From positions 43,468 to 107,467 of the forward strand of contig CAYNPN010000001.1 in assembly GCA_964399085.1 (NCBI GenBank): a stretch of 64,000 bases of DNA, in the 5' to 3' direction. This stretch comes from Candidatus Hadarchaeota archaeon (lineage in GTDB: Archaea > Hadarchaeota > Hadarchaeia > Hadarchaeales > JAGGTB01). A program made the translations under genes and the position numbers. Shown here piece after piece: positions 25,381 through 45,384 of the stretch (positions are counted from its first letter, which is position 1; each line of letters starts with the position of its first letter). Below the pieces are notes generated by a model, which was given only the letters and a program-made list of their open reading frames with translations, was not told the origin of the DNA and did no database searches.

Positions 25381-25383
25381 CAG

Positions 25384-30345: not shown

Positions 30346-31467
30346 TTGTCCGGAAATAAAGTTGGTTTAATTGTCAACCCCATTGCAGGGATGGGTGGAA
30401 AGGTTGGACTGAAAGGCACCGATGGTCCTGAAGTCGTGGAGAAAGCTAGGGGGCTTGGAGCGGAACCCGTTGCCCCCGAGAGGGCTCAAAAAGCTCTTGA
30501 GAAACTCAAGGATTCTAAGATTCAGTTAGATATTCTGACGTGTTCCGACGAGATGGGGGAGAAAGAGGCCAAAAATGCCGGTTTCAGTCCTCAAGTGATT
30601 TTAGAAGTAGTATCCGGAAAAACTAAGCCTCAGGACACCAAGGAAACGGCCAAAAAACTTCTGGATAAGAATGTTGACATAATTTTATTTGCCGGCGGAG
30701 ATGGGACGGCAATAGACATTTCGCACGTAGTTGGAAAGAATGTGCCTCTTCTGGGGATTCCCACTGGAGTTAAAATGCATTCGGCCGTATTCGCAAACAC
30801 TCCCGAGATCGCCGGAAAGCTGGTGTCGAGATATTTGTCCGGAAACGGTCTCCCTTTGCGGGAAGCGGAAGTTATGGACGTGGACGAGGAGGCGTTTAGA
30901 CGGAACGAGCTGGATACTGATTTAAAGGGATTTGCGCTTACCCCCTACGACCCTCGATGGGTGCAGGCGGCCAAATCTCCGACCGTTTCTTCAGGCTCGG
31001 AGAAAGAGGATCAGGAGTCGATAGCCGAGTGGGTCGTCGAGAAGCTTGAAGAAGATAGACTTTATGTCCTAGGGCCCGGGACGACGACCAGGGCCGTGGC
31101 AGAGGAACTGGGCATCTCGGATTTTACCCTTTTGGGCGTCGATTTGATTAGGGGAGGGAAACTGATGGCCAAGGACGTTACTGAAGGAGAAATTTTGGAG
31201 GAGGTAGGGGACGACCCCTCGACGATAATCGTGAGCCCGATCGGCAAGCAGGGATTTATTTTCGGCCGAGGCAATCAGCAGATAAGCCCCCGAGTGATTA
31301 GGAAAGTTGGTACGGACAACCTAATGATTCTGGCTACTCCACAAAAACTCGTGGAGACCTCCATGCTCAAGACCGACACTGGGGACCCGGAATTGGATGA
31401 AGAGTTAAGGGGATACCAAAGAGTTATAATGGGATATGGCACCACTAGACCGGTTCCGGTCAGTTAA
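30346..31467 (+). CDS. ATP-NAD kinase-family protein (COG3199-like)
   Basis: IVNPIAGMGGK and the FAGGDGTAIDI (GGDGT) motif. TTG start. Confidence 0.7.
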   Translation: MSGNKVGLIVNPIAGMGGKVGLKGTDGPEVVEKARGLGAEPVAPERAQKALEKLKDSKIQLDILTCSDEMGEKEAKNAGFSPQVILEVVSGKTKPQDTKETAKKLLDKNVDIILFAGGDGTAIDISHVVGKNVPLLGIPTGVKMHSAVFANTPEIAGKLVSRYLSGNGLPLREAEVMDVDEEAFRRNELDTDLKGFALTPYDPRWVQAAKSPTVSSGSEKEDQESIAEWVVEKLEEDRLYVLGPGTTTRAVAEELGISDFTLLGVDLIRGGKLMAKDVTEGEILEEVGDDPSTIIVSPIGKQGFIFGRGNQQISPRVIRKVGTDNLMILATPQKLVETSMLKTDTGDPELDEELRGYQRVIMGYGTTRPVPVS

Positions 31468-32051
31468 GACACTAACTTATCTTGACAGGTTTTGCAAAGC
31501 GGATCTCCCTTTTTGTCTACGGCGTGGATGTGATTGGAGAAAGACATTACGCATTTGGGATTGTCGCAGTGTCCGAGCCCGAAAGTATGCCCGACCTCGT
31601 GAATGGCCTCCTTTGCTGCACGCTCAAGAAATAGTTTTCGATTTTCTTCGTCCCCGTAAAATCCCGGTTTTAGTCTGTGGAGGGAAATAATTGATATCCT
31701 GCCGTATCGGCGCGCCTGGCCGAAAACGAAATTTAAATTCTTGCTGAACAGGTCCATGGATGTCACTGCGAGGCATTTTTCATTTTCGGAAATTTTTACA
31801 TTTTCGGCCACGTGTTCCAGCATTTTGCCGGCTCTGTATTGACCCCTTTTCTCGTCATAGGCTTCGGAAGGTATTTCTAAATTCGATTTGACGCTAATAT
31901 CGTCTATAACCGAAGGAAATGTTGCTTTGAGAGAATCTGATATTTTGCTCAATGCATCTTGGGGGATATCTCCAATAGGAATTATTTCTATAAGCAATCT
32001 ATCTTGTTGGTTTATTTCTTCCCTATAATTTAAGTGCAAAGCTGCGAACAA
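31464..32051 (-). CDS. amzA: Archaemetzincin (zinc metallopeptidase)
   Basis: HEVGHTFGLGHCDNPKCVMSFSN followed by a C-terminal CKTC zinc site. Confidence 0.88.
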   Translation of the reverse strand: MFAALHLNYREEINQQDRLLIEIIPIGDIPQDALSKISDSLKATFPSVIDDISVKSNLEIPSEAYDEKRGQYRAGKMLEHVAENVKISENEKCLAVTSMDLFSKNLNFVFGQARRYGRISIISLHRLKPGFYGDEENRKLFLERAAKEAIHEVGHTFGLGHCDNPKCVMSFSNHIHAVDKKGDPLCKTCQDKLVS

Positions 32052-32167
32052 ATTAACGATTCATCGGTGTTACCTTGGAGATAAGCTTGGCGGTTCTCAC
32101 ACTCATTTTGTATTTCCCTCCTCCCCGGATAGCTTTTATCAGGTGCCGGCAATAACAGGACGGTAGC

Positions 32168-32653
32168 GTGATGTTGGAAAAAATTTTGGTTCCTATAGAC
32201 TCCATAGAGTGGGACAACACCCTGAACGGGGTCGAGACCGCAATGGAATTTTATGAGGCATGCGGTATAGAGGAGGACCCCGAGCTGATTTTCATCCATG
32301 TCTTTGAAACTGACTCCGGGGTCCCAGTGTCCGAAAAGGACAGAATACGCAAACTTAAGGAGAGCAAGATCAAGGACGAATTTGACACGATAGAGGAAAT
32401 GTGCAGTGAAAGAGGGGTCGAAAATATTAGGACGATCACGAGAGAAGGAGAGCCCGATGAAAAGATCGTGGAGCTTGCCCAAGAAGAAGGCGCGGACATG
32501 ATAGTTATGGGATCCGGAAAGTTGCACGATAGAACCACTAAGGGTAAAATTCAAAAATTTGTCTACGGCAGCGTCACGGAAAACGTGATTCACAAGGCCC
32601 CGTGCTCGGTCTTGGTATCTAGATCCGAATCCCAAAAATTTGAAGAGGAATAA
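32168..32653 (+). CDS. Universal stress protein family
   Basis: ILVPIDS and a C-terminal GSVTENVIHKAPCSVLV. Confidence 0.85.
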   Translation: MMLEKILVPIDSIEWDNTLNGVETAMEFYEACGIEEDPELIFIHVFETDSGVPVSEKDRIRKLKESKIKDEFDTIEEMCSERGVENIRTITREGEPDEKIVELAQEEGADMIVMGSGKLHDRTTKGKIQKFVYGSVTENVIHKAPCSVLVSRSESQKFEEE

Positions 32654-32726
32654 ATTCTCGGCCCCGATAAACGAGAAGCCTTGCCAGGTCGTCCAAGTTT
32701 TTTAGTCAGCTCGCTGAAATACTTGA

Positions 32727-33929
32727 GTGGAGAGAAATATGTACGGAGATATTTTTGAGGAGGAGATGTCGAAGGAGACCGTATTTAAAGATCAGTCGAA
32801 GCTCTCCCCCGACTTCGTTCCCGAGGAGCTGGTCCATCGGGAGGAAGAGTTTAGGAAGCTGACTCAATTCTTTAAACCCGTCTTGGAGAATCAGGCGAGT
32901 CAGAGGGTTCTGGTATCCGGCTCGGTGGGGGTCGGAAAGACGGCTCTCACATCGAGATTTGGCCAAGAACTGGAGTCGGCCGCCAAAAAGCGGGATATGG
33001 ATTTGGTCTACGCCCACGTAAACTGCCGGAAACGGGGGACGCCACAAATGGTTCTCCACAACCTGGCCAGTAATTTTCCCATCAGCGTGCCGAAGAGAGG
33101 ATTCGCACCACAGGAAATTATGGAACATATAGTCGACTATTTGGAGAAGAAGGACGTCTATCTCACCGTAACACTGGATGAACTCGATTACTTTATTCGT
33201 CAGAACGGTCCGGATCTTCTCTATTCCCTTACTCGAGTCGCCGAGGAATCTGGGACCCCCAATAGGTTGAGTATAATTGCCACTTCGTTTTCGCCGGACT
33301 TCCTGAAGTCCCTCGACGAGGCAACGCGCAGCACTTTCATGCACAACCAGATAGATATGGACAGATACAGCGCCGATCAGCTCTACGACATCCTATATCA
33401 GAGGGTAGATCTCGCCTTCAAGCCCAATATGGTCAGAGATGAAGCCATCGACCTCATTTCGAACATTGCATCCCGACGGGGAGATGCAAGATTTGCTCTC
33501 GAGCTCCTATCCTATTCCGGCATGATCGCCAGTCAGGGTGAGATCGTGGAGGTTTCGCCCAATCACGTTAGGAGGGCCAAGTCCGAGATAAACCCGGAGA
33601 TAAGGAAGGATGTCCTTATGGACCTCAGAAAACACGAGCTTCTATCGTTGCTCGCTCTCGCCAGGAGGCTGAAGATATCCGACGAGGCATTCGCCTTGAC
33701 CGGCGATGTGGAGGAGGCCTACAATATAGTCTGTGAGGAGTATCAGGAGAAACCTCGCAAACACGTCCAGTTTTGGAATTATATAAATAAGTTGGAGAAT
33801 TTGGGGATAGTTGATACCGAGAAATCAAGAGGAGGACACAGGGGTAAGAGCCAAAGGATCAGCATTTCCGACGCCCCCCCTGAGATGGTGGAGGAAGAAG
33901 TGGAAAAAATTCTTGAAAGAGGAAATTGA
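32727..33929 (+). CDS. cdc6: Orc1/Cdc6 replication initiator
   Basis: LVHREEEF.KL, Walker A GSVGVGKTA, Walker B TLDELD and a C-terminal winged helix (GKSQRISI). Confidence 0.9.
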   Translation: MERNMYGDIFEEEMSKETVFKDQSKLSPDFVPEELVHREEEFRKLTQFFKPVLENQASQRVLVSGSVGVGKTALTSRFGQELESAAKKRDMDLVYAHVNCRKRGTPQMVLHNLASNFPISVPKRGFAPQEIMEHIVDYLEKKDVYLTVTLDELDYFIRQNGPDLLYSLTRVAEESGTPNRLSIIATSFSPDFLKSLDEATRSTFMHNQIDMDRYSADQLYDILYQRVDLAFKPNMVRDEAIDLISNIASRRGDARFALELLSYSGMIASQGEIVEVSPNHVRRAKSEINPEIRKDVLMDLRKHELLSLLALARRLKISDEAFALTGDVEEAYNIVCEEYQEKPRKHVQFWNYINKLENLGIVDTEKSRGGHRGKSQRISISDAPPEMVEEEVEKILERGN

Positions 33930-33949
33930 TCGTAATCCTACCGAATAGT

Positions 33950-34042
33950 GGGGCGGTGGTCTAGCTAGGTTGAGGACACCAGCTTCGGGACCTTCAAAGG
34001 CGAAAAAGCTGGAGATCCGGGGTTCGAATCCCCGCCGCCCCA
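33950..34042 (+). tRNA. tRNA-Pro (anticodon CGG) with a 17-nt intron (33990-34006) at the canonical 37/38 position
   Basis: Hand fold. Acceptor stem GGGGCGG/CCGCCCC. D stem GTCT/GGAC. Anticodon stem CCAGC/GCTGG. Loop TTCGGG|A. T arm CGGGG-TTCGAAT-CCCCG. Discriminator A. The intron forms a bulge-helix-bulge: UUCG/CGAA 4-bp helix flanked by the 3-nt bulges GGA and AAA. CCA is not encoded. Confidence 0.9.
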
Positions 34043-34107
34043 ATCGAACCTTTTATTCGGTTACTGGGCCCACTCCACCTTAGCTTCATAATGAAGCCTT
34101 GAAAATA

Positions 34108-34139
34108 GGCCGTGTAGTCACCTGCAAGACTACCGGACC
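34108..34139 (+). repeat. Palindromic site A1: ggccgtGTAGTCacctgcaaGACTACcggacc
   Basis: 6-bp perfect (12-bp imperfect) inverted arms around the core ACCTGCAA. This core variant is shared with B2. Confidence 0.8.
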
Positions 34140-34224
34140 ATCCACTTAGTATTATCAATAGCCACCAAGCAAAGAGTAATCTAATATTAGATTTTCACTT
34201 AGAAAGGCATAATCTTGTTTACTC

Positions 34225-34287
34225 CTAAACCATCTGGCTTTTCCAGTAGTCACCTACAAGATGACTGGAAAAGCCGAATAGTTTTAG
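34225..34287 (+). repeat. Palindromic site A2, with 12-bp perfect arms ggcttttccagt/actggaaaagcc around agtcacctacaagatg
   Basis: Read directly from the sequence. The arms extend imperfectly to ~26 bp. The core CTACAAGA is shared with B1. Confidence 0.85.
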
Positions 34288-34788
34288 ATTTTTGTTATAC
34301 TCATAACTAAAAATTGAACTTCTTGTTGATTCTCTAAACAGGGTTTTCTTCTACTTTCTCTAATAATTTCCTGAGATTATTAATTTCTTCAAAATTTAGC
34401 CCATTTAAAATTTCATTTTCGATGCAGAAATTGAAATCCTTAGTAGATTGAACAATTTTTACTTTCCCCTTCCACTGATGTTGTAGGCTTCCAAGCGATT
34501 TTTTCCGAGCAAATAGTCGAGGTATTTTTCCGTCGTGTTCCAGTTCAGGTCGGCGAACCTAACAATTGTATTTTTTACAGTCTTCACTACTCTTCACTGT
34601 CTCCAGAATATCGGCCCCAGTTTTTCCAGCCCCCAACCCATTAAACCATCACAACACCTTTAAAAGACACGGGGGAATAAATGGAAAACAGAAAAATCAG
34701 TTACTTTGTGAACTACTGAGCTCAGGAATAGCTAATATTTTACGAGTAATAAAGTTTTATGAGGAATAAAGGACTCAAAGTGTGTCCT

Positions 34789-35130
34789 TTATTTAAATGT
34801 GTGAATGAAAAACCCATCCCCGGATTTGTTTTCTTTTAGAAAATCTGAAAGTTCTTCTATTTCTACTAAGTTTATGGCTCTGGATGGACAATTTTCAACA
34901 CAAGGAACTATTCCTTTCTTTTCAAATAGCTCCATACATTCATTGCTCTCAACACATGCTCCTGTAGAAAAATGGGAGAATTCAATTCTAGGCCCACTCT
35001 CTGTATCTATAGGACCTTTCTTATCTAAGCTTATTCTTGGGGGGTTATTACCCACCGCCTTACAGCTTGCTACGCAAACACCGTTGCCAATGCATTTCTG
35101 TTGATCTATCACGATTACATGTGTAGCCAT
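34789..35130 (-). CDS. 4Fe-4S ferredoxin-domain protein
   Basis: CIGNGVCVASC and CVENCPSRAI cluster motifs. The stop lies 1 nt from the start of the upstream oxidoreductase gene. Confidence 0.75.
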   Translation of the reverse strand: MATHVIVIDQQKCIGNGVCVASCKAVGNNPPRISLDKKGPIDTESGPRIEFSHFSTGACVESNECMELFEKKGIVPCVENCPSRAINLVEIEELSDFLKENKSGDGFFIHTFK

Positions 35131-35131
35131 T

Positions 35132-37210
35132 TCAGTTAACCCTCTCTATTTTACAAGGGATACCTCTTTCCCCCATGTATCCAGTTACTGGATCTACATT
35201 ATCGTGTATGTCAATAAGGCGTGCTTCCTGATGTTCTCCCCTTGAAGCAATAACTGAGTCTGAGTGCATGCGTTCTGAAACTTTAGCCTTGTATTCTGCA
35301 CTGCCATTTTTTGTCTGAATTTTAATCCAGTCTCCGTCCTTTATCTCTTTTTCTTCAGCTACGCTTTTGTGAATGTAAGCCCGATTCTCCTCTAAAGTCT
35401 CTTCCAGGTCAGTTATTGCTGACCAAGTTGACCAAGAATGTTGTCTTTTCGGAGTAAAACTGGAAAATATCAGTGGGAATTCCTCATTTTGGCGGGGCCA
35501 TTGTTCATCGTGCCAAGTTGGTAGAGGCTCTACTCCAAAGTTTTCTAATATACTGGAGTAGATTTCGACTTTGCCAGTCGGAGTTTTAAACCCTTCCTCT
35601 TCATAAAGCCTTTCTTCTGCCTTTTCACCGACTTTTATAATCCCTTTTTCACGTAGTTCTTCAAATGAAATATATAATGGATCTAACATATAGTTGACAA
35701 TCTCTTTATTGTTTCTAAAGGGGAAATCATCTCCAAATCCCATTTTTTCAGCTAATTCGCCATATAATTCTAATCGCGATTTACATTCTCCAGGTGGTTC
35801 CACTAGTTTCTGCCGGACACTAATTATCCCCTCTTTATTGAAATTGGCTAGAGAGAAATTGTTTCTTTCAAGAAATGTTGTTGACGGGAATATTACGTCT
35901 GCTAGTTCACCGGTTTCGTTCATGTATACGTCATAGACAACAAGCAAATCCAAATTGTTTTTTATTCCCTTAACTGCTTTCTTATAATTAGGTTTTCTAA
36001 CTACGAAATTGCTCGCATCACAAATCAGTGCTTTTATATTTCCTTCCCAAAATTCCTCCATAAATGCGTTATCTATTACAGTTCTTTCTTTTGAGGCATT
36101 GTAAATTGCAGGATACTGTTTATATTTTTCGTGTTTAGGAATATTTCTTTTTTCATGCAAACCAAATCTTTTATCCCCCGTTAAAGTTCGTTCATCTATT
36201 TTCGGTTCTCTGTCCCTGTAAAATTGTTTTGCTCCAATAATATCGATATTTCCTGTTATTGTTTCTAAAATAGAAAGCGCTCGGGCATTTTGAAAGTACT
36301 GTGAGTGATGACAGCTAACATTTGGAGTTATCCAGGCCGGTTTCTTTGAGGCAAATATACGTGCAACTTCTTTAATGGTTTCCGCATCTACATCGGTTAT
36401 TTTTTCTGCCCACTCTGGCTTGTATTTTTTTACGTGTTCTTTGAGTTTATCGAAGCCATAAGTCCAATCTTCTATAAATTCTTTGTCGTAGAGGCCTTCT
36501 TCAATTATGACGTTTATCATTGCGAGAGCCATTGCAAAGTCCGTGTTCGGTCTTATTCTTACCCATTTATCAGCTTTTGATGCTATTGGGGTTAATCTGG
36601 GGTCTATGACTATCAGGTCAGTATCTCCGTTTAAGACAGCGTCTGGAACCCCCATATACGCTTCTAAATTCCCATTCCAAATAATTACCAGCTTAGAGGA
36701 TTTGAAAAAATCGAATGTATCTAGCACATCATATGATGCAGCGCCGAACGTATACATTTCAGATAGAAGGTTTGGTGCATAGCACAGTCCTGATCCATCG
36801 CAATAGTTCGACGAACCAATTGCGTCCATAAACCTTCTGTGTAGACGAAAGCTGTAAGGTTCAGCCTCACATCCAGTAACCAATCCTACCGAATCTGATC
36901 CGTATTCTTCTATTATCTCATTCAGCTTGTTTGCAGTATAATTAATGGCCTTACTCCAAGATACCTCTCTCCACTTTCCTTTTCCCCTCTTTCCATCTCT
37001 AATCAGTGGCTCTGTTAGGCGTTTGTCATCGTATTCAAATTGAGTTGCTGAGGCTCCTTTTGCACAAAGAACTCCACGATTCATTGGATGCTCTTTATTA
37101 CCATAAAGTGACTTGATTTTTCCGTTTTTTAAATGGGCAATCATTCCACATTCTTTTCTACAGATTTTACAAGTAGTTTTTAAAAACTGTTCACGGTTAT
37201 CTGAGCCCAT
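35132..37210 (-). CDS. Molybdopterin (bis-MGD) oxidoreductase, cytoplasmic type
   Basis: N-terminal Fe-S motif CKICRKECGM...C. MopB core and a C-terminal beta-barrel. No twin-arginine leader. 692 aa. Confidence 0.82.
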   Translation of the reverse strand: MGSDNREQFLKTTCKICRKECGMIAHLKNGKIKSLYGNKEHPMNRGVLCAKGASATQFEYDDKRLTEPLIRDGKRGKGKWREVSWSKAINYTANKLNEIIEEYGSDSVGLVTGCEAEPYSFRLHRRFMDAIGSSNYCDGSGLCYAPNLLSEMYTFGAASYDVLDTFDFFKSSKLVIIWNGNLEAYMGVPDAVLNGDTDLIVIDPRLTPIASKADKWVRIRPNTDFAMALAMINVIIEEGLYDKEFIEDWTYGFDKLKEHVKKYKPEWAEKITDVDAETIKEVARIFASKKPAWITPNVSCHHSQYFQNARALSILETITGNIDIIGAKQFYRDREPKIDERTLTGDKRFGLHEKRNIPKHEKYKQYPAIYNASKERTVIDNAFMEEFWEGNIKALICDASNFVVRKPNYKKAVKGIKNNLDLLVVYDVYMNETGELADVIFPSTTFLERNNFSLANFNKEGIISVRQKLVEPPGECKSRLELYGELAEKMGFGDDFPFRNNKEIVNYMLDPLYISFEELREKGIIKVGEKAEERLYEEEGFKTPTGKVEIYSSILENFGVEPLPTWHDEQWPRQNEEFPLIFSSFTPKRQHSWSTWSAITDLEETLEENRAYIHKSVAEEKEIKDGDWIKIQTKNGSAEYKAKVSERMHSDSVIASRGEHQEARLIDIHDNVDPVTGYMGERGIPCKIERVN

Positions 37211-37310
37211 TTAACCGTTTTATATTCTCTTTCAGAAGTTTTATATGGGTTTCGGTTTAGAAAATGGTGCTGATGGTGTGCTGATTCTTCTATTCTAGTT
37301 AGGGTTGCTG

Positions 37311-37340
37311 GACGCCTCCAAACCACGATATGGAGGCGTC
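37311..37340. repeat. Hairpin gacgcctcc-N12-ggaggcgtc, with the same 9-bp stem as 51790-51820
   Basis: tgGACGCCTCC...GGAGGCGTCa is identical at both loci (11 + 10 nt) while the loops differ. Confidence 0.8.
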
Positions 37341-37518
37341 AGACGAAAATTTGACAGAACAAGAAATAAAAGAATTTGCTCTCGAAAGAGTGCCTACCTA
37401 TGCCCATCCTAGAAAATTTTTCTTTAAAGATGAGCTTCCAAAAAGCGGAGTTCTAAAAACAAAACACTTCAAACTGGAGGAAGAGGCCAAAGATCTTCTC
37501 TCGGATCCTCTTGGTTAA
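37330..37518 (+). pseudogene. C-terminal fragment of an AMP-dependent acyl-CoA synthetase
   Basis: LTEQEIKEFALERVPTYAHPRKFFFKDELPKSG..K matches the conserved C-terminal block of adenylate-forming ligases. The apparent ATG is part of the hairpin at 37311-37340. Its orientation is opposite to the intact ligase. Confidence 0.65.
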
Positions 37519-37700
37519 AAGGACAGAATTAACGACTAATACACGTTTCTTAATCCGATGAAATATATATGCCACATCGGTAATGGAGCGTCTGAGCTAT
37601 TTTTCCTATGGTCATCATATCCTGCAATGTTGGCGGGGGGATTACTATATGTTAGAATTCTTACTTTATTTTCAACTTCATAAGTTATTCGGATATTTTT

Positions 37701-39248
37701 TTACTCATTTTTCTTCAACTTTTCCCTATCCACCTTTCCAGTCGTTGTTCTGGGAAAATCTTCTTCGCCTAAAAATTCGTAGGATTTTGGTCTCAAATAG
37801 CTAGCAAACTCTTGTTCTGCCCACCACTTATCTAAATCCTCGGCTTTGAGTTTTTTACTATTTCTGATATATGCCTTTGGAACTTTACCCCACTTTTCGT
37901 GCGAAATTGGAACCACCACCGAATCGATGACATCGGGATGGTTGGATAATTTATCGCTTACGTCTTCGGCGTGGATTTTCACCCCGCCACTCTTGAACAT
38001 GAAATCCATTCTTCCAGTTAAGTATAAATATCCTTCTTCATCGATGTATCCCGTATCCCCAGTTTTGCACCAACCATTGGGATATACTTCTTCAGTGTCA
38101 ACAGGCGTATCCTTCCATACCCTTGACGTTTCAGTCATAGGGTTATGTATATATATCTCTCCCTCCTCTCCTCTTTCCTTTGGTTCTCCACTCTCTGGGT
38201 CTCGGATTTTAATTTCTGTTTCGGGAAAAGGCAACCCCACGCTTTCGACTGACTTCTGCACATTTCTATCAAGAAACGGGTAAGTATGTGTTCCTGCGGT
38301 TTCGGTCATGTAATAAGTATGAAAGATTTTGGGGCACACTTTCTCTCTAATCCGCCTCAATTCAGATTCCGATATTTTTTCTCCCCCTATATGTACCCTT
38401 TCCAAACTATCTAAATCGTATTTTTCTGGATTTTCTTCCAATTCTCCTATTATCCAAGGCCATAGGGACGGAACAGCAAAAAAGGTAGTTATTTTTTCTT
38501 CTCCGAGGGCTGAGAGCACGTCAGATATGGTGAATTCTCGAAGATAAACCATAGTAGCTGCAGTATACATAGTCGAGCCAACCCAAGCCCACCAAGCCAT
38601 AAAGTTTGTTGCGTAGGGATAGAGGAATCTTTCCCAGTACGATTCTAACCCTGGAGAATTAGATATCAAGAATAGTCTTCCTTGATTAGTGAATGTTATA
38701 GGCTTAGGTCTTCCCGTCGTTCCGGATGTAAATATTATGTTACAGTCATCATCTGCGTTGACTTCTATGTCTGGTTCCTCTGCCCCACTATATTTTTCCA
38801 TTATTTCATTATATGTGAACTCTTCCGGAGAATCTCCAGATCCTCCAATCGAAACAAAAGCTTCGACACTAGGTAAACCCATTTCCTTCATCCCCTCAAC
38901 TTTTTCTACTAAATCTTCATCGTATACCATAACTTTAGGCTTTAGTACATTAGCCATCCATTTCAACCCCTCTACTCCTTCGAGATGTGACAGATTGGAT
39001 GAGATACCTCCAAACTTTTGAGAGGCATACGCAGAAACCTGATGGGCGACACTAGGCCTACACAATGTAATCATTCTGTCTCCTTTTTCCATCCCTGCCT
39101 CTTCTCTGTAAAAAGCACTCATTGCATTTAGCCCCCTGTTTAATTCCTTGAATGTTATTCTCTCTCCTTTTGGGTAATCTACTGCTGCTTCCCTCTCACC
39201 AAAGTTATCCCCCAACCATCTGAAAACTTCCTTCCAGCTTTTCATCAT
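37701..39248 (-). CDS. AMP-dependent acyl-CoA synthetase/ligase
   Basis: IIFTSGTTGRPKP, GWCKTGDTGYIDEEGYLYLTGR and a C-terminal PRTTTGKVDR. Confidence 0.88.
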   Translation of the reverse strand: MMKSWKEVFRWLGDNFGEREAAVDYPKGERITFKELNRGLNAMSAFYREEAGMEKGDRMITLCRPSVAHQVSAYASQKFGGISSNLSHLEGVEGLKWMANVLKPKVMVYDEDLVEKVEGMKEMGLPSVEAFVSIGGSGDSPEEFTYNEIMEKYSGAEEPDIEVNADDDCNIIFTSGTTGRPKPITFTNQGRLFLISNSPGLESYWERFLYPYATNFMAWWAWVGSTMYTAATMVYLREFTISDVLSALGEEKITTFFAVPSLWPWIIGELEENPEKYDLDSLERVHIGGEKISESELRRIREKVCPKIFHTYYMTETAGTHTYPFLDRNVQKSVESVGLPFPETEIKIRDPESGEPKERGEEGEIYIHNPMTETSRVWKDTPVDTEEVYPNGWCKTGDTGYIDEEGYLYLTGRMDFMFKSGGVKIHAEDVSDKLSNHPDVIDSVVVPISHEKWGKVPKAYIRNSKKLKAEDLDKWWAEQEFASYLRPKSYEFLGEEDFPRTTTGKVDREKLKKNE

Positions 39249-39265
39249 TTTGTCATCTCACTCCC

Positions 39266-41320
39266 TCATAACTGTTTTATTTTACATAAGCAGGATCTCA
39301 TATCGACTGCTCCTGAAACCGGATCTTTGGGTTCCTCAGGAGTTACGAGATTTATATTTGATTTCCCTCCCCATCCATGGTATGCGTGAACCACGCCTTG
39401 CATTATTTCATCAGTGATTTTCGCTTTCATCTGTGCGGAGCCACGTTTGGTGGATATTTCTACAAGAGTTTCATCCTTGATTCCGTACTTTTCTGCATCG
39501 TTGGGATTAATCTCGACCAAAGGGTCTGGGAATTTTTTCCGCAACCGTGGTATGTCTCTGTAATTTGAATGCTCGAATATTGCTGTCCTCCCCCCCGTTG
39601 TCAGAACCAACGGGTACTCTGTGGCGAGATCAGGGTTCGATCTTGGAATTTCAGGGGGATCATTATAGGTAGGAAGAGGTTCATAACCGTATCTCTTCAT
39701 TTTCTCTGAATAAAGCTCAACTTTTCCCGACTCCGTATTAAACCCTTCTTCCTTGTACTTCTCGAACTCTCGCGGCGCAAAGAAGAATCCCATAGGATGT
39801 TCTTTCATCCATGTGAGTGATGTGCCCATCTGTTGACATATCTCGTCCAAAAATGCTTCCTCGCCTTCCCATGGAAAGAACTCTTCGAGTCCCATCCTTT
39901 TCGATAGCTCCAATATGAAGTTAAGATCTGATTTGCTTTCTCCTATAGGTTCTATTACTTTTTGGGCTAGTGTGGCCAAAGGCAATCCTCCACCCAGCCA
40001 GTATGTCCTGAGAGAATTTCTTTCCAATAAAGTAGCAGCAGGTAGCACCAAATCGGCTAATTTCGCCGTTTCTGTCATTCTTAAGTCCATAACCACGGTA
40101 AAGTCGCAATGTTCCAGTGCTTCCCTCGTTCTCTCCGCATTTGCACGGGTCTTGACAAAAGCTCTCCCCATAAACATGGCCGCCTTTATATCTCCTGAAA
40201 TCATTTGATCAGCCATTATAGCATCGGGCTTTTCAACCGGATAATTTATCCTTGATATTTCATCGCAAAATAAAGGGAATTCCTCCTCCGCTTTGGCTTT
40301 TTTGGTGACCTTTTCTTTAAGTTCTGTTCCTAACTTTACGGAAGGGGCAGGAGAACGCTGGGATCCCCCCTCCTTGTCTACGTTTCCTGTTATAGCTTTT
40401 AGACAGGAAATCGCTCTATTGGTTTGAAAAGCATTTGAATGTTGAGATTGTATTCCGACACCTGAATACAAGGTTGCGGGTTCTGATTTGGCGTACAAGG
40501 TTGCGGCTTCAACGATTTTATCAGCGGGTACTCGGGTTATTTCCTCCACCTTGGTAGGGGTATACTTCTTCACTTTGTCTGATAATTTATCAAAGCCAGT
40601 CGTCCATCTTTCTACAAATTCTTTGTCATAAAGGTTCCGTGATATGATTACATTCATGAAGCCTAATGCTAAGGCTCCGTCTGTCCCTGGTAGAACCTGA
40701 AGGTGGATATCGGATAATTCTGCAAGGCGCGTTCTTCTTGGATCTACCGTGATAATGGGGATTTCTTCGCTCAAACTCTTTAGTCTCTTTCGCAATTCGA
40801 CAGCCGGACCTGATTCCCAAAGATTTCCACCCCAATTCAGTAAACATTCAGTTCCCCCCGCATTCCAATACATATAGTCTCCAAAAGTTACCGCATCAGA
40901 GACTATCATGGGATACCAGCAATCATTTCCCATTGATAACATGTTGGGAGTACCGTAAGCGTATGCAAAGCGCTCCAAAGCCCACATCATCTCGTCTCCA
41001 ATGTGGGGATGTCCCATGTTTATCGCAAAGGCTTCAGGCCCATAATCCTGCTTGATTTCGTTTAACCTGTCTGATATTATATCTAAGGTCTCATCCCAAG
41101 ATATTCTCTTCCATTTGTTATTTTTCCTTTGGAGAGGATTAAGCAAACGGTTAGGCGAGTAAAGATTATCAGCCATCGCAGAAAATTTTGGACACTTTCC
41201 CCCTAGCCAACTATGGGAATCAGAAGGTTCCCAATCGACTACCTTTCCTTCCTCAACTGTAACCTCAATACCACAGTTTACTCCACACATTCCACACACT
41301 GTGTGTATTTTTTCAGTCAT
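39266..41320 (-). CDS. Molybdopterin (bis-MGD) oxidoreductase, second paralog
   Basis: N-terminal CGMCGVNCGI...C. 684 aa, collinear with 35132..37210. No Tat leader. An AT-rich promoter region lies at 41321-41400. Confidence 0.82.
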   Translation of the reverse strand: MTEKIHTVCGMCGVNCGIEVTVEEGKVVDWEPSDSHSWLGGKCPKFSAMADNLYSPNRLLNPLQRKNNKWKRISWDETLDIISDRLNEIKQDYGPEAFAINMGHPHIGDEMMWALERFAYAYGTPNMLSMGNDCWYPMIVSDAVTFGDYMYWNAGGTECLLNWGGNLWESGPAVELRKRLKSLSEEIPIITVDPRRTRLAELSDIHLQVLPGTDGALALGFMNVIISRNLYDKEFVERWTTGFDKLSDKVKKYTPTKVEEITRVPADKIVEAATLYAKSEPATLYSGVGIQSQHSNAFQTNRAISCLKAITGNVDKEGGSQRSPAPSVKLGTELKEKVTKKAKAEEEFPLFCDEISRINYPVEKPDAIMADQMISGDIKAAMFMGRAFVKTRANAERTREALEHCDFTVVMDLRMTETAKLADLVLPAATLLERNSLRTYWLGGGLPLATLAQKVIEPIGESKSDLNFILELSKRMGLEEFFPWEGEEAFLDEICQQMGTSLTWMKEHPMGFFFAPREFEKYKEEGFNTESGKVELYSEKMKRYGYEPLPTYNDPPEIPRSNPDLATEYPLVLTTGGRTAIFEHSNYRDIPRLRKKFPDPLVEINPNDAEKYGIKDETLVEISTKRGSAQMKAKITDEIMQGVVHAYHGWGGKSNINLVTPEEPKDPVSGAVDMRSCLCKIKQL

Positions 41321-41523
41321 AAAATCATACTTTTTTTCTTTTTATATGATATAAATATTTCTAATATATATAATATATATAATATAAATAAATTTTCCGC
41401 GATGTGGAGGTGCTGTTAAGTTAAGCTATTTTTAGGAGTAGATACATTCCGGAATCTGGAGGTTGGGTCGGGAGAAGTAAAGAAGGAGGTGGATACCCCC
41501 TGATTGGAAAACTCCAAAGGTTT

Positions 41524-42078
41524 TTGCAGGACCTTCTCCCGGAGAATTTTGGGAGGAATTTCAGTGATAAATATTTCGACAGGAACAGGACGAGCCCGGC
41601 TGTGAGGGCTTTCGGAGCCTATCTCTACGTGTCGCAGGGCTCAAGCTACCGGAAAGTTGCCCGGCTCCTTGAGGACTTCTCGATCTTGGTCTCCCACGTC
41701 GCCGTGTGGTCGTGGGTCCAGAGACTCGAGGAGGAGCTCGAGGGTGAAGTTTTCAGGAGAAGGAGAAGAAAGGTCATAATCGCGGACGAGACCAAAATAA
41801 AGACTAAGAAGGGCTGGATTTACGTGTTCACGACGATAGACCTTGTGAGGAGGATTTTCGTTACCTACATAGACGAGCACTCTATGCCCGAAGTCGTCTT
41901 CCAGCTTAACGAGGAGGGAATCGAGACCAAGAGGGGTAAGGGATGTTTGGCTTGGTCGGTGGAGAAAATCCTCGACAATAAAATATACATCGGTCAGTAT
42001 GAGGTCGCCGGGGTGGAATTAAGGAAATTTTTCTTAAGACTATTCGGCTTTTCCAGTCGATATCTACAAGACGACTGA
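41524..42078 (+). pseudogene. Chimeric remnant: an IS6-like DDE transposase N-terminal part fused to a ~55-aa piece of a large-serine-recombinase 'recombinase' domain
   Basis: AYLYVSQGSSYRKVARLL...VSHVAVWSWVQ...VIIADETKIKTKKGWIYVFTTID is IS6-like. Then RIFVTYIDEHSMPEVVFQLNEEGIETKRGKG..WSVEKILDNKIYIGQY matches the serine-integrase recombinase domain. The last ~15 codons are simply the translated palindrome B1. Confidence 0.6.
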
Positions 42079-42097
42079 GAAAACCAGATAGTCTTAG
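42033..42097 (+). repeat. Palindromic site B1: cttaagactattcggcttttccagtcg-atatctacaaga-cgactgagaaaaccagatagtcttag
   Basis: ~26-bp imperfect inverted arms. The core is in the same orientation as in A2. Confidence 0.85.
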
Positions 42098-42124
42098 CAA
42101 GTTACGAACCTTTCCTTCCGTTCT

Positions 42125-42142
42125 CCGCCGCCCCATCGCACC
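42125..42142 (+). repeat. Duplicate of the tRNA-Pro 3' end (candidate attR core)
   Basis: ccgccgcccca is identical to 34032-34042. The following tcgcacc compares with tcgaacc after a 1-nt gap. Confidence 0.6.
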
Positions 42143-42190
42143 AAGGTTTGAATCTTTTCCAATTTTCGGTGAGGAAAAAGAGACAAGGGA

Positions 42191-42249
42191 CTTAAGACTT
42201 ATAGATACCTGCAAGACGACTGGGGCTGAAATACTGAGTAGTCTTTAAA
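42191..42249 (+). repeat. Palindromic site B2 (degenerate): cttaagacttatagatacctgcaagacgactggggctgaaatactgagtagtctttaa
   Basis: The outer arms ttaagact/agtctttaa and the right half caagacgactg match B1. The core CCTGCAAGA matches A1. Confidence 0.7.
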
Positions 42250-42720
42250 TTCCCAGTGGAAATAGAGTCTAAAACCAGATTTTCATTCAAAGACAAAGAG
42301 GGAAATTAGCTAGGTGATAAAAATCTTATCAAGTGTTCACTCCTCCGGCAGAGTCAGCTTATGGAGCTATTGGCGACGTTTTTAATAACGATTATATTTT
42401 CTGCACTAATCGTAGAGCTAACTTTTCTTGGGGGAGAAAATCAAGTCTTTATAGATGAGGTCTCCATGGTAGGTAATGGGAAGTTTATTACTGATTTTAA
42501 TTCACTTTTATTTTTTCACCAATTTCTTCAACCATTTCCTTGTAACTGTTTCTAATCTTTACCTCAGTCACTTCTGTTACTTCCACCGTCTATCTTTGAG
42601 TTTTTCGAAAGGAAAGAAAAAGGATCAGGATTGTGCATGGAGTCTCCCCTTACAGCGTTCGTTGGATATCCGAGCCAGCCAACGTAATTTAGTGCTGTCT
42701 TCTGAAGAACCGCCATTTTT

Positions 42721-43659
42721 CTAAGATTCTTCCCCCGGAGGCCCGGCGTTTTCCGGGCGACCCGCGTTCTCATTCGCTGCGTTCTCATTCGACCCATTCG
42801 GCCCGCCGTTTCCGGGGACATCTAGCTCGTCTGGGTTTTTGTTGTTCTCGCTGTCCGTGCCCTTTACAATATTCTTGACTATTCCTGGAGGCATCTCCTT
42901 GTTCTCGAGGAACCCCTTGATCTGATTGAGAGAAACTTCCTTGTTTTCCAAAATGTTCTTGACAATGCCCGGCGAGAGTTTTCTGTTTTCCATTAGTCCC
43001 TTGAGGTTATCGAAGGTAATGTCTCTGTTATCGACGACCTGCTTAAATATACCAGGAGGCAGTTCCCTATCCTGTAAACCCTTGACGACATTTTCAACGG
43101 ACTCGAGCTTGTTCTCCAGCTTCTGCTTCAGGAGGCCCGGCGGCAGTTCACCCTGGCCGAATTCCTTCTGCATGTTTTCTTGGACCTCTTCAAGCGCCTT
43201 CTTCTGAGCTCGGCTTCTTACCATCGCCCTTTGGATGGCCGGTTTTGCCTCATTATCGACTTTGTTCTCCACGTCCTCAAGGACCTGGATGTGTTTTCTC
43301 ACCGCGTTTTGGGCTCTCTTCAGACCTTTTTTATCTTTGGACATCTTGATGCCTTTGCTTAGGCGCTTTTGGGACTCCTTCATGAGCTTCTTATGGTTGC
43401 TAGGTACGTTCTTATCCTTAGTCTTCTTGTACTCCTGTATCCTTTCTTGAGCTCTCTCTAACTGCCAGTCCTGTCCTCCCGCAAAGGTGGCTTCCTTAAT
43501 CCTTTCGCCGGCCCTCTCTAGCCCGTATAGAGGATCTCCGGGCTCTTGATCGACGAATGAGTCCACGGCTACGGGAGTTCCGATTGCTCCCCCTGCGACC
43601 GCTGCCACGGCTACAACTGCGGCTGCGGCTGCGACACCTGCCTGTCCTAATTTCAACAT
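42721..43659 (-). CDS. Membrane-anchored or secreted repeat protein
   Basis: An N-terminal Ala/Val-rich hydrophobic segment. A helical domain with PGDPLYGLERAGERIKEA. Four ~21-aa repeats centred on (E/K)(L/M)(P/S)PG(I/L)(L/F/V)K. A low-complexity N/G/P/E tail. A GGAGG RBS precedes the ATG. Confidence 0.75.
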   Translation of the reverse strand: MLKLGQAGVAAAAAVVAVAAVAGGAIGTPVAVDSFVDQEPGDPLYGLERAGERIKEATFAGGQDWQLERAQERIQEYKKTKDKNVPSNHKKLMKESQKRLSKGIKMSKDKKGLKRAQNAVRKHIQVLEDVENKVDNEAKPAIQRAMVRSRAQKKALEEVQENMQKEFGQGELPPGLLKQKLENKLESVENVVKGLQDRELPPGIFKQVVDNRDITFDNLKGLMENRKLSPGIVKNILENKEVSLNQIKGFLENKEMPPGIVKNIVKGTDSENNKNPDELDVPGNGGPNGSNENAANENAGRPENAGPPGEES

Positions 43660-43709
43660 TCTATTTTTACCTCCTATTTTTTCTAATTTTTATCCTGATA
43701 GGGCATCCC

Positions 43710-43831
43710 CTTGGAAATGATTTTCTTTATTTCCTTCAGTCGATTGGGAAATCCTTGTTCTTATTCCATCTCTTGGAGACGATTTTCTTTATTTCCCTCA
43801 ATCGTTTGGGGACTTCTTGTTTTTCTTCCAT
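43710..43831. repeat. Tandem duplication, 2 x ~60 bp at ~80% identity
   Basis: cttggaaatgattttctttatttccttcagtcgattgggaaatccttgttcttattccat / cttggagacgattttctttatttccctcaatcgtttggggacttcttgtttttcttccat, read directly from the sequence. Confidence 0.85.
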
Positions 43832-44136
43832 ATTTTTCAACTACCTCGGTTAATTCCTCTCGAAGACCTTATTTAAAGAATCTCCAACAACCGTTCACGC
43901 GGCAGATTCAAATATTCTTAATAGCCCAAAAAATATCAAAAAGAAAAAATTATGATACAAAACCGTTCACATCCGAGAAGAAAGCCTAAATTTTTCTTTA
44001 AATGGTTAAAGGAGAGAATTCGGTGTTCCTGAACGGCCACCCCCAGCATTTCGAATAAACGAGCATCACTTGGATAATAATCAGGTCCGGTCCGTGCATT
44101 AATGCATGGATAATTGCTAGTTTTTATTTCATTGAG

Positions 44137-45373: not shown

Positions 45374-45384
45374 AGTTCACACTA

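What the first reader, a model, noticed from the sequence alone, without database searches (positions are those of the whole stretch)
34032..42142. ~8.1-kb island at tRNA-Pro(CGG), next to orc1/cdc6, bounded by a duplicated tRNA 3' end
- **Repeat:** ccgccgcccca covers the end of the T-stem, the 3' acceptor strand and the discriminator at 34032-34042. It recurs in direct orientation at 42125-42135. The next 7 nt match 6/7 after a 1-nt gap.
- **Interval content:** the interval is one minus-strand cargo block. It ends in debris of two mobile-element genes.
- **Composition:** a few 60-nt hand counts gave roughly 38-42% GC inside. Most samples outside were higher. The encoded proteins are K/I/N-rich, whereas flanking host proteins are strongly acidic.

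This is the classical attL/attR signature of an element integrated into a tRNA gene.
Basis: partly seen in the sequence, partly recalled or inferred. Interest (0 to 1): 0.65.

Follow-up and report, generated by a model that had tools for sequence, protein, structure and literature searches.

The report
Decayed gene islet beside archaeal tRNA-Pro
An 8-kb block of metabolic genes sits just after a proline tRNA gene in an uncultured Hadarchaeota archaeon and is probably the worn-out remnant of a DNA element that once inserted there, which is an ordinary kind of feature and not proven here because no integrase gene or uninterrupted version of the site was found.

Summary
An intron-containing tRNA-Pro(CGG) lies at 33950-34042, just after orc1/cdc6. 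Its last 11 nt recur once, in direct orientation, at 42125-42135, and the repeat extends to 19 identities over 22 aligned columns.

The interval holds four intact minus-strand metabolic genes: a ferredoxin, two acetylene-hydratase-like Mo/W oxidoreductases and an acyl-CoA ligase. It also holds four gene wrecks: a frameshifted wHTH gene, a ligase C-terminal piece, an IS6 transposase N-terminus and a ~62-aa piece of a large serine recombinase.

- The repeat's chance probability is 0.002-0.07, depending on how strictly its position is fixed.
- GC3 is clearly low only for the left module.
- The protein-acidity contrast is not significant.
- No tyrosine integrase exists anywhere between 34 and 58.5 kb.
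- Every available assembly carries the block, so there is no empty site.

- A much stronger repeat brackets the cargo: two ~60-nt hairpin palindromes at 34229-34287 and 42035-42097.
- Ca. Hadarchaeum genomes place cysK directly after this tRNA, so about 24.5 kb here is variable.

Verdict: a plausible decayed tRNA-associated islet (confidence ~0.5), of an ordinary kind and low-to-moderate interest.

The parts
33950..34042 (+). tRNA-Pro(CGG) gene with a 17-nt intron (~33990-34007). This is the presumed integration target, and it is intact.
   Evidence: Rfam RF00005, 55 bits. Anticodon and intron read from the sequence. An orthologous tRNA follows orc1 in L005, L007, L008 and L009.
34029..34050 (+). 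Left copy of the direct repeat (attL-like): TCCCCGCCGCCCCAATCGAACC. The exact 11-mer is 34032-34042.
34106..34136 (+). Degenerate palindromic unit A, core CCTGCAAGACTACCGG.
   Evidence: Weak hairpin, z = -2.5.
34229..34287 (+). Palindromic hairpin unit B, the left member of the strong repeat pair that brackets the cargo.
   Evidence: 76% identical to unit C over 59 nt. Alignment score 53 against a shuffle mean of 18 and maximum of 32. Hairpin z = -5.2.
34470..34640 (-). Frameshifted pseudogene of a small winged-helix (PF14947-like) protein. Coordinates are approximate.
   Evidence: Pfam HTH_45, E = 0.006, on a stop-masked six-frame translation. Frames read. Weak evidence.
34789..35130 (-). 113-aa 4Fe-4S ferredoxin-like protein, partner of the 692-aa enzyme.
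   Evidence: Pfam Fer4 families. A ~114-aa gene follows the homologous oxidoreductase in L022 and L024. GC3 0.30.
35132..37210 (-). 692-aa cytoplasmic Mo/W-bisPGD oxidoreductase of a rare subfamily.
   Evidence: Pfam PF04879, PF00384 and PF01568. Best PDB match is acetylene hydratase 2E7Z. Five clusters at 50-58% identity, then a drop to ~35%. GC3 0.32.
37330..37518 (+). Orphan C-terminal fragment of an AMP-dependent ligase (gene debris). It marks the junction between two cargo modules.
   Evidence: Pfam AMP-binding_C, positions 41-73 of 76, E = 1.4e-4.
37701..39248 (-). 515-aa AMP-forming acyl-CoA ligase.
   Evidence: Pfam PF00501 and PF13193. NCBIfam acyl-CoA ligase families, all below curated cut-offs. 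GC3 0.39.
39266..41320 (-). 684-aa cytoplasmic Mo/W-bisPGD oxidoreductase, a distant paralogue (31% identity) of the 692-aa enzyme.
   Evidence: Best homologues at 49-54% (unnamed and Deltaproteobacteria MAGs); Ca. Hadarchaeum at 43%. GC3 0.415.
41410..41845 (+). 5' fragment of an IS6/IS240-family insertion sequence: left inverted repeat GGTGCTGTTAAGTTAAG plus transposase residues 1-~107.
   Evidence: NCBIfam IS6, positions 1-92 of 202. 67% identical to an MSBL1 transposase. Inverted repeat identified by comparison with L018. Logan contigs break at this repeat.
41824..42020 (+). ~62-aa fragment of a large serine recombinase ('Recombinase' domain only), fused in frame to the IS6 fragment.
   Evidence: Pfam PF07508, E = 1e-11. 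CcrB positions 178-239 of 542. phrog_95 integrase positions 264-319 of 651.
42035..42097 (+). Palindromic hairpin unit C, the right member of the pair. It starts ~15 nt after the recombinase fragment and ends 28 nt before the right repeat copy.
   Evidence: Hairpin z = -5.7.
42122..42142 (+). Right copy of the direct repeat (attR-like): TCTCCGCCGCCCCATCGCACC. The exact 11-mer is 42125-42135.
42193..42223 (+). Degenerate palindromic unit D, outside the interval, 57 nt after the right repeat copy.
   Evidence: It does not fold better than shuffled sequence.
51231..51248 (+). Possible third, degenerate copy of the tRNA-end junction (GCCCCATTCGAACCCTTT). Membership is uncertain.
   Evidence: Second-best downstream hit of the junction probe, P = 0.013; joint P with the first hit = 0.008. 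It lies ~490 nt outside the IS110 copy.

Best explanation
The interval 34043-42135 is a decayed, now immobile genomic islet. It lies in a hypervariable zone immediately downstream of tRNA-Pro(CGG) in a Ca. Hadarchaeota (MSBL1-like) genome.

Proposed mechanism (inferred, not shown):
1. A circular element carried an attP that matched the 3' acceptor end of tRNA-Pro plus a few bases beyond it.
2. A tyrosine-type integrase recombined that attP with the tRNA gene. This regenerated the tRNA at 33950-34042 and displaced the original 3' end to 42122-42142.
3. The integrase and any element backbone were later lost through IS6 insertion and deletions. What remains is four wrecked genes and a mosaic cargo.

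The cargo has two metabolic modules, and nothing in it can now promote excision:
- Module 1: an acetylene-hydratase-like Mo/W oxidoreductase plus its ferredoxin partner. It has low GC3 and looks like the most recent or most foreign part.
- Module 2: an acyl-CoA ligase plus a second, distantly related Mo/W oxidoreductase. Its composition is close to the host's.
For: - An intact tRNA with a direct repeat of its 3' end lies 8.1 kb downstream: 11/11 exact, 19 of 22 columns when extended.
- The exact 11-mer is expected 0.0017 times downstream.
- The 42.1-kb site is the top hit of a junction probe on the downstream + strand, P = 0.043. Real upstream and minus-strand sequence score no higher than 23.
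- The repeat falls in non-coding DNA directly beyond IS6 and serine-recombinase debris.
- The interval holds four gene wrecks in 8 kb.
- GC3 of all four cargo genes is at the bottom of the host range, ranks 0, 0, 0 and 3 of 29, p = 0.003.
- GC drops from 0.52 to 0.30 right after the tRNA.
- The closest homologues reach only 49-58% identity, come from other lineages (Bathyarchaeota, Deltaproteobacteria MAGs) and sit in unrelated gene contexts. The Ca. Hadarchaeum copy, at 43%, is a lone gene elsewhere.
- Three related lineages each have different genes after the orthologous tRNA. Ca. Hadarchaeum has cysK there, which in this window lies 24.5 kb away.
- Archaeal att sites confined to the acceptor end are known (PMC8371274).
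Against: - No tyrosine integrase gene or fragment lies in the interval, at either boundary, or anywhere from 34 to 58.5 kb.
- The only recombinase relic is of the serine family, which is not known to use tRNA targets.
- The repeat is short. If the position requirement is relaxed, its chance probability rises to 0.07-0.4.
- No replication, conjugation or viral gene is present, and no plasmid or phage record is similar.
- The right half of the interval is compositionally host-like, and the proteins are not significantly less acidic than host proteins.
- The GC drop after the tRNA could simply reflect an AT-rich intergenic spacer.
- No empty site was found in any assembly.
Confidence: 0.5

Rival explanations
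1. There was no tRNA-targeted integration. The region downstream of tRNA-Pro is simply a plastic zone, shaped by IS elements (IS6, TnpB, IS110, ISH6) and illegitimate recombination. The metabolic genes arrived or were shuffled piecemeal, and the 11-nt match to the tRNA end is coincidence.
For: - With realistic multiple testing, the repeat's chance probability is 0.07-0.4.
- A presumably spurious third hit inside a coding region (41229-41245) also scores unusually high, which suggests heavy tails in the score distribution.
- There is no integrase.
- The cargo is a mosaic of two modules with different composition, separated by a ligase fragment.
- Four IS-type elements lie within 13 kb.
- The synteny break against Ca. 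Hadarchaeum spans 24.5 kb, much of it housekeeping-like and host-like in composition.
Against: - The match is in the right orientation, on the right side, covers exactly the tRNA 3' terminus, and sits at the edge of the mobile-gene debris.
- The exact 11-mer is expected 0.0017 times.
- The excess of junction-probe hits is specific to the downstream + strand, joint P = 0.008.
Confidence: 0.3
2. The real element ends are the two ~60-nt hairpin palindromes, B at 34229-34287 and C at 42035-42097, giving a 7.8-kb unit. These would be recombination or transposition sites of a different system. Candidates are att sites of the now-fragmentary serine recombinase that abuts unit C, MITE or foldback ends, or attC-like sites. 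On this reading the tRNA-end repeat is incidental.
For: - B and C are by far the strongest repeat bounding the cargo: score 53 against a shuffle maximum of 32, and 76% identity over 59 nt.
- Both are very stable hairpins, z = -5.2 and -5.7.
- All four family members in 64 kb lie within 300 nt of the two repeat copies.
- The recombinase fragment ends ~15 nt from unit C.
- One dinucleotide in the arms groups the arms as expected for attL/attR hybrids, and the two inner arms are exactly complementary over 19-20 nt.
Against: - The arm-swap signal is contradicted by another arm position, so it is inconclusive (with a hand correction of one register).
- The recombinase is truncated by unit C rather than lying beside it.
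- attC hallmarks are absent in three of the four units: no AAC...GTT boxes and no extrahelical bases. There is no IntI, and a 7.8-kb multi-gene 'cassette' is atypical.
- The units do not resemble the IS6 inverted repeat.
- No clear target-site duplication is present.
- No other copies were found in the related loci or in IMG/VR.
Confidence: 0.12
3. The palindromes and the AT-rich spacer after orc1/tRNA-Pro are part of the chromosomal replication origin (ORB-like repeats), and the cargo was inserted into or next to that origin.
For: The region lies next to orc1/cdc6. The arms contain TTCCAGT/ACTGGAA, which is half of the canonical mini-ORB. A ~750-nt non-coding AT-rich stretch is present.
Against: - The canonical ORB consensus is not enriched: 25 hits against 22.4 expected, and none cluster near orc1.
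- The units have no G-string.
- The units lie 8 kb apart rather than flanking one unwinding element.
- The relatives show no such units next to orc1.
Confidence: 0.04

Closest known systems
tRNA-gene genomic islands integrated by tyrosine integrases (Islander-type; in archaea the pNOB8-type 'classical' integrase elements)
   Same: An intact tRNA with a displaced 3' fragment in direct orientation downstream. The interval falls within the 2-200 kb size range. The fragment lies outside protein domains. Codon composition is atypical, and the crossover region is at the T-stem/acceptor junction.
   Different: No integrase gene or remnant. The identity block is only 11 nt exact (19 of 22 columns). 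No element backbone is present. The cargo is purely metabolic and mosaic. The element is probably no longer mobile.
SNJ2-like archaeal proviruses, whose att site is confined to the amino-acid acceptor end of a tRNA (as summarised in PMC8371274)
   Same: A very short att identity limited to the 3' acceptor end of the tRNA, in a salt-adapted archaeon.
   Different: No viral genes and no integrase here. The resemblance rests on att length and position only.
SSV-type ('suicidal') archaeal integrase elements
   Same: An archaeal host, a tRNA target, and an integrated element without an intact integrase gene.
   Different: SSV-type integration leaves int(N) and int(C) halves abutting attL and attR. 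No such fragments were detected at either boundary.
Large-serine-recombinase integrative elements (CcrB/SCCmec-like, phiC31-like)
   Same: A fragment of the 'Recombinase' domain lies at one end of the interval, next to a dyad-symmetric site.
   Different: Only ~62 of ~500 residues remain. Serine integrases do not create long direct repeats and are not known to target tRNA genes. The gene is cut by the palindrome instead of lying beside it.
Integron cassette arrays / CALINs reported in some Hadarchaeota MAGs (PMC9668308)
   Same: Imperfect palindromes of ~60 nt that flank genes of one orientation, in a phylum where attC sites have been reported.
   Different: The conserved AAC/GTT boxes are missing in three of four units. 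The stems are near-perfect without extrahelical bases. There is no IntI, and the intervening unit is 7.8 kb with several genes.

Membership tests
tRNA-integrated genomic island (Islander criteria, PMC4383910) | Full-length tRNA gene at one end | tested here: met
   tRNA-Pro(CGG) at 33950-34042, Rfam 55 bits.
tRNA-integrated genomic island (Islander criteria, PMC4383910) | Displaced terminal tRNA fragment: same orientation, 3' fragment downstream, not internal to the tRNA, not inside a protein domain | tested here: met
   11-mer at 42125-42135 on the + strand covers the tRNA 3' terminus and lies in non-coding DNA. It is short, with significance 0.002-0.07.
tRNA-integrated genomic island (Islander criteria, PMC4383910) | Length of 2-200 kb | tested here: met
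   8.1 kb.
tRNA-integrated genomic island (Islander criteria, PMC4383910) | Tyrosine integrase gene inside or overlapping the island | tested here: not met
   Pfam, NCBIfam and PHROGs scans of all ORFs, plus stop-masked six-frame translations of both boundaries, gave no hit. There is also none between 42 and 58.5 kb.
tRNA-integrated genomic island (Islander criteria, PMC4383910) | Empty site (attB) in a related genome | tested here: inconclusive
   Every assembly that carries the flank genes also carries the island. The relatives (Orc1 57-77% identical) have different genes after the tRNA and no alignable flank.
SSV-type suicidal integrase element | int(N) and int(C) gene halves abutting attL and attR, with att inside the int reading frame | tested here: not met
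   ORFs that cross either repeat copy (33994-34158 -, 41906-42214 -) and all six frames of both edges have no integrase similarity.
Large serine recombinase integrative element | Intact recombinase with catalytic resolvase domain, recombinase domain and zinc-ribbon/coiled-coil | tested here: not met
   Only profile positions ~178-239 of 542 are present. The piece is fused to an IS6 fragment and truncated at unit C.
Large serine recombinase integrative element | attL/attR hybrid sites built from dyad-symmetric attB and attP half-sites | tested here: inconclusive
   One arm dinucleotide supports swapped arms and one arm position contradicts it.
Integron cassette array / CALIN | attC sites with R''(RYYYAAC)/R'(GTTRRRY) boxes, extrahelical bases and <4 kb spacing; short co-oriented cassettes; IntI optional | tested here: not met
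   Only unit B has AAC...GTT at its ends. The stems lack bulged bases. Units B and C are 7.8 kb apart. No IntI is present. Assessed by eye; IntegronFinder was not available.
IS6/IS26-type composite transposon or translocatable unit | Two IS6 copies, or one complete copy, flanking the mobilised segment | tested here: not met
   There is a single 5' fragment (left inverted repeat plus ~107 codons) at 41410-41845 and no second copy in the window.
Archaeal oriC (ORB repeats beside orc1/cdc6) | Clustered ORB or mini-ORB repeats flanking an AT-rich unwinding element | tested here: not met
   The canonical mini-ORB consensus is not enriched, 25 hits against 22.4 expected. Lineage-specific ORBs cannot be excluded.

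The most novel reading that the evidence does not exclude
The ~60-nt hairpin palindromes with a conserved, directly oriented CTRCAAGAYGAC core could be the recombination sites of a previously undescribed archaeal cassette-type element. Such an element would be serine-recombinase-borne or attC-like and would carry metabolic gene modules. It would have landed repeatedly beside tRNA-Pro, giving a tandem array whose junctions are the three tRNA-end-like sites at 34.04, 42.13 and 51.23 kb.
Probability: 0.08. Interest if true: 0.55.

Novelty: new member of a known kind. Interest (0 to 1): 0.25.

Why it matters
If the reading is right, this is one more example of tRNA-adjacent gene acquisition, here in a barely studied, uncultured archaeal lineage (Hadarchaeota/MSBL1-like). 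It would show that acetylene-hydratase-like Mo/W enzymes and an acyl-CoA ligase reached this genome horizontally, which bears on how these archaea gained parts of their anaerobic metabolism.

It does not open a new mechanism. Its practical value is as a caution: an 11-nt tRNA-end repeat without an integrase or an empty site is only suggestive. The unexplained hairpin palindromes are the one element that could lead somewhere new.

Tried and rejected
- **Empty-site search.** Exact-protein look-ups of Orc1 and of the right-flank DUF5667 protein returned only contigs that carry the island. GTDB and JGI scans with Orc1 returned only distant relatives, at 57-77% identity. The flank of L005 does not align with either junction.\n- **Logan contig breaks.** Breaks at 34013 and at 33977/33979 fall at the tRNA's own ends. 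They are explained by shared tRNA-Pro isoacceptor sequence, not by population polymorphism (inference).\n- **A longer degenerate duplication around the 11-mer.** Nothing significant lies upstream or downstream apart from the palindromes.\n- **attL/attR arm-swap model for palindromes B and C.** The result is ambiguous once my 1-nt register error is corrected.\n- **Palindromes as IS6 inverted repeats.** Rejected.\n- **Palindromes as ORB elements.** Rejected.\n- **Palindromes as attC sites.** Rejected by eye.\n- **Palindromes as known RNA families.** Rejected.\n- **Palindromes derived from cysK.** Only a 21/25-nt match, marginal once the search space is counted.\n- **The 51.2-kb site as an IS110 edge.** Rejected. 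The IS110 spans ~51743-53092.\n- **Similarity of the 8-kb interval to plasmids or phages.** None.\n- **Palindrome copies in IMG/VR.** None.\n- **The contig end of the second MAG at 37585.** The contig is identical up to its end, so it is uninformative.\n- **Technical note.** One simulation script was killed for time and was replaced by an analytic estimate.

Full report
**Source and setting.** The window comes from an uncultured Candidatus Hadarchaeota archaeon.
- Window 24993-44382 is 99.995-100% identical to contig CAJOVD010000026.1 of MAG GCA_905333695.1.
- The closest genome-collection relative of its Orc1 protein is a "Candidatus Hadarchaeota archaeon" MAG at 77% identity. Ca. Hadarchaeum species follow at 57-58%.
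- The IS6-type transposase fragment is 67% identical to one from an MSBL1 single-cell genome.

**Checking the observation.**
- ARAGORN reports no tRNA in the window. Rfam finds one at 33950-34042 on the + strand, 55 bits against a gathering score of 29.
- Read directly, the gene has anticodon CGG at 33986-33988 and a 17-nt intron at about 33990-34007, which explains the ARAGORN miss.
- The gene lies 20 nt after orc1/cdc6, 32739-33929.
- CCGCCGCCCCA covers the last three T-stem bases, the 3' acceptor strand and the discriminator. It occurs exactly twice in 64 kb, at 34032 and 42125, both on the + strand.
- A local alignment extends the repeat to 34029-34050 vs 42122-42142, with 19 identities in 22 columns.
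- Nothing further upstream or downstream of the two copies aligns significantly, apart from a separate palindrome family.

**How surprising is the repeat?** The answer depends on the question asked.
- Under a second-order Markov model of the 30 kb downstream, the exact 11-mer is expected 0.0017 times.
- Any 11-mer abutting the tRNA 3' end is expected 0.07 times.
- Any 11-mer starting in the last 45 nt of the tRNA is expected about 0.5 times. The window does contain several unrelated 11-12-mers matching other parts of the tRNA.
- A 43-nt probe spanning the tRNA end was aligned to the downstream + strand. Its three best hits score 28 (42.1 kb), 26 (51231-51248) and 24 (41229-41245, inside a coding region).
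- In 600 simulations the corresponding probabilities are 0.043, 0.013 and 0.0017, and 0.008 for the top two jointly.
- As real-sequence controls, the upstream + strand peaks at 22 and the whole minus strand at 23.
- The signal is therefore real but modest, and it is specific to the expected side and strand.

**Content of the interval.** Four intact genes lie on the minus strand:
- a 113-aa 4Fe-4S ferredoxin-like protein, 34789-35130;
- a 692-aa molybdopterin oxidoreductase, 35132-37210;
- a 515-aa AMP-forming acyl-CoA ligase, 37701-39248;
- a 684-aa molybdopterin oxidoreductase, 39266-41320.

Both oxidoreductases lack a signal peptide when read directly. Among solved structures both are closest to acetylene hydratase 2E7Z. 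They are only 31% identical to each other.

The interval also holds four wrecks:
- a frameshifted winged-helix pseudogene at about 34470-34640 (weak evidence);
- an orphan ligase C-terminus on the + strand, 37330-37518;
- the first ~107 codons of an IS6-family transposase, with its left inverted repeat at ~41410;
- fused in frame to that, a ~62-residue piece of a large serine recombinase, corresponding to CcrB positions 178-239.

**Composition.**
- At 1-kb resolution, GC is 0.376-0.411 for 34-39 kb. It is 0.44 for 39-42 kb, which matches the flanks.
- GC falls from 0.52 to 0.30 right after the tRNA. There is no comparable step at the right boundary.
- Gene by gene, GC3 is 0.30, 0.32, 0.39 and 0.415, against a mean of 0.483 (sd 0.052) for 29 host genes. 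The ranks are 0, 0, 0 and 3 of 29, Mann-Whitney p = 0.003.
- The protein-level contrast is not significant: pI p = 0.13, D+E p = 0.10, K+I+N p = 0.46. Only the ferredoxin and the 692-aa enzyme are K/I/N-rich.
- The nucleotide signal thus supports a foreign origin, most clearly for the left module.

**Where the cargo comes from.**
- The 684-aa enzyme has its best homologues at 49-54% identity, in unnamed metagenomic contigs and Deltaproteobacteria MAGs. These sit in transporter-rich contexts.
- Ca. Hadarchaeum copies reach 43% and stand alone among housekeeping genes.
- The 692-aa enzyme belongs to a small subfamily. Five clusters lie at 50-58% identity, one of them from Bathyarchaeota, and the next hits drop to ~35%.
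- In two long contigs carrying such relatives, the enzyme is again followed by a ~114-aa gene. The neighbourhoods are otherwise unrelated: benzoyl-CoA-reductase-like and radical-SAM genes in one, acetone-carboxylase-like genes in the other.
- The cargo is therefore a mosaic of at least two modules, joined where the orphan ligase fragment lies. No other genome in the searched collections carries the four-gene block.

**Integrase and element backbone.**
- Pfam, NCBIfam and PHROGs scans covered all ORFs in the interval, the small ORFs crossing either repeat copy, and stop-masked six-frame translations of both boundary regions. None found a tyrosine recombinase or a split SSV-type integrase.
- No integrase exists between 42 and 58.5 kb either.
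- The interval has no nucleotide similarity to any plasmid or phage record.
- According to the Islander paper, only tyrosine-family integrases are known to target tRNA genes, and an island candidate without an integrase is rejected (PMC4383910).
[quoted passage not shown] The shortness of the repeat is therefore not disqualifying in itself.

**Comparative evidence.**
- No empty site was found. Every contig on record that encodes the exact Orc1 or the exact right-flank DUF5667 protein either carries the island or is too short. These come from two MAGs and several Logan assemblies.
- Contig breaks at 33977/33979 and 34013 coincide with the tRNA's own ends. I attribute them to sequence shared with other tRNA-Pro genes (inference).
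- In the 77% relative (L005), the orthologous tRNA is followed by unrelated genes, and its flank does not align with either junction.
- In Ca. Hadarchaeum (L006-L009), the genes after orc1 and the tRNA correspond to window 58789-62528: cysK, an FAD oxidoreductase and a phosphoesterase.
- So about 24.5 kb (34043-~58500) is variable relative to that genus. The segment also holds TnpB, IS110 (~51743-53092) and ISH6. Its other genes (glycosyltransferase, SCP2, Fe-ADH, AOR, helicase, URO-D-like) are host-like in composition.
- tRNA-Pro is thus a synteny breakpoint in this phylum. That fits an integration hotspot, but it does not define the 8.1-kb boundaries.

- The strongest repeat bounding the cargo is a pair of ~60-nt palindromes, B (34229-34287) and C (42035-42097). 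They are 76% identical, with an alignment score of 53 against a shuffle maximum of 32. Both are very stable hairpins, z = -5.2 and -5.7.
- Two degenerate relatives exist: A (34106-34136) and D (42193-42223). Each follows a copy of the 11-mer at similar spacing, 63 and 57 nt.
- All four share a directly oriented core, CTRCAAGAYNACYGG. That motif is expected 0.05 times in the window. It is found at these four places plus once inside cysK.
- I tested whether B and C look like attL/attR hybrids of two dyad-symmetric sites. The inner arms are exactly complementary over 19-20 nt, and one dinucleotide supports swapped arms. Another arm position supports the opposite grouping (after hand correction of a 1-nt register error). 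The test is inconclusive.
- The units are not IS6 inverted repeats, not enriched ORB elements and not known RNA families. They lack attC hallmarks in three of four copies.
- They are absent from the related loci and from IMG/VR.
- Their nature remains open.

**Most likely mechanism.** I judge it most likely (about 0.5) that a circular element with an attP matching the acceptor end of tRNA-Pro was integrated by a tyrosine-type recombinase.
- That event would have regenerated the tRNA and displaced its original 3' end to 42.13 kb.
- IS6 insertion and deletions would then have removed the integrase and backbone, leaving a dead islet with mosaic metabolic cargo.
- Shown: the repeat, its position and orientation, the debris, the low GC3, the lack of close homologues, and the synteny break.
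- Inferred: the integration event itself, the former integrase, and the order of decay.
- The site at 51.23 kb may mark a further, older junction of a tandem array. The genes between 42.1 and 51.2 kb look native, however, so I give that extension little weight.

**Rivals.**
- The main rival (about 0.3) is that the repeat is coincidental, in an IS-rich plastic zone.
- A palindrome-defined element is a minor rival (about 0.12).
- An origin-related explanation is unlikely (about 0.04).

**Novelty and verdict.** This is an ordinary kind of feature, a degraded tRNA-adjacent islet, in a poorly known lineage. It fails the integrase criterion of the family it most resembles, and it lacks the empty-site proof. 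I rate it a new member of a known kind, interest 0.25. The unexplained hairpin palindromes are the only part with some potential for novelty.

Noticed in passing
34043-58500 (vs L006-L009): In Ca. Hadarchaeum the orthologous orc1/tRNA pair is followed directly by cysK, an FAD oxidoreductase and a phosphoesterase. In this window those genes lie at 58.6-62.5 kb. The tRNA is therefore followed by a ~24.5-kb lineage-specific segment, three times larger than the reported island.
   Followed up: partly
34229-34287, 42035-42097 (plus degenerate 34106-34136, 42193-42223): A family of ~60-nt hairpin palindromes with a conserved, directly oriented core CTRCAAGAYGAC. It occurs only around the two copies of the tRNA-end repeat. 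Its nature is unknown: it is not an IS6 inverted repeat, an ORB, an attC site or an Rfam family.
   Followed up: partly
51231-51248: A third sequence resembling the tRNA-end junction (GCCCCATTCGAACCCTTT). It is the second-best downstream hit of the junction probe (P = 0.013) and lies ~490 nt outside the IS110 copy.
   Followed up: partly
51193-51742: A ~550-nt GC-rich (0.51-0.54) block with no convincing ORF and no Rfam match, between a metallophosphoesterase gene and IS110. It may be an undescribed structured RNA or a gene wreck.
   Followed up: no
42206-42230 vs 59178-59202: Palindromic unit D matches a 25-nt stretch of the cysK-like gene (the HYKTTG motif region) at 21/25 nt. cysK is the gene that follows this tRNA in Ca. 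Hadarchaeum. Significance is marginal once the search space is counted.
   Followed up: partly
43710-43833: Two tandem 62-nt direct repeats (82% identical) in the spacer between the DUF5667 gene and TnpB.
   Followed up: no
41410-54169: A high density of insertion-sequence material: an IS6 fragment, TnpB (44241-45365), IS110 (~51743-53092, 76% DNA identity to a copy in an MSBL1 single-cell genome) and an ISH6 transposase (53099-54169).
   Followed up: partly
33950-34042: ARAGORN, run with bacterial settings, misses this intron-containing archaeal tRNA entirely. Only the Rfam covariance model finds it.
   Followed up: yes
37585 (end of contig L020, MAG GCA_905333355.1): The second MAG's contig stops exactly in the spacer between the low-GC module and the host-like module. 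It is 100% identical to the window up to its end. This could be a coverage drop or strain variation.
   Followed up: partly
25001-26000: The lowest-GC kilobase of the window (0.348). It includes a basic 186-aa ORF (24820-25380, pI 9.1, GC3 0.37). Not examined.
   Followed up: no
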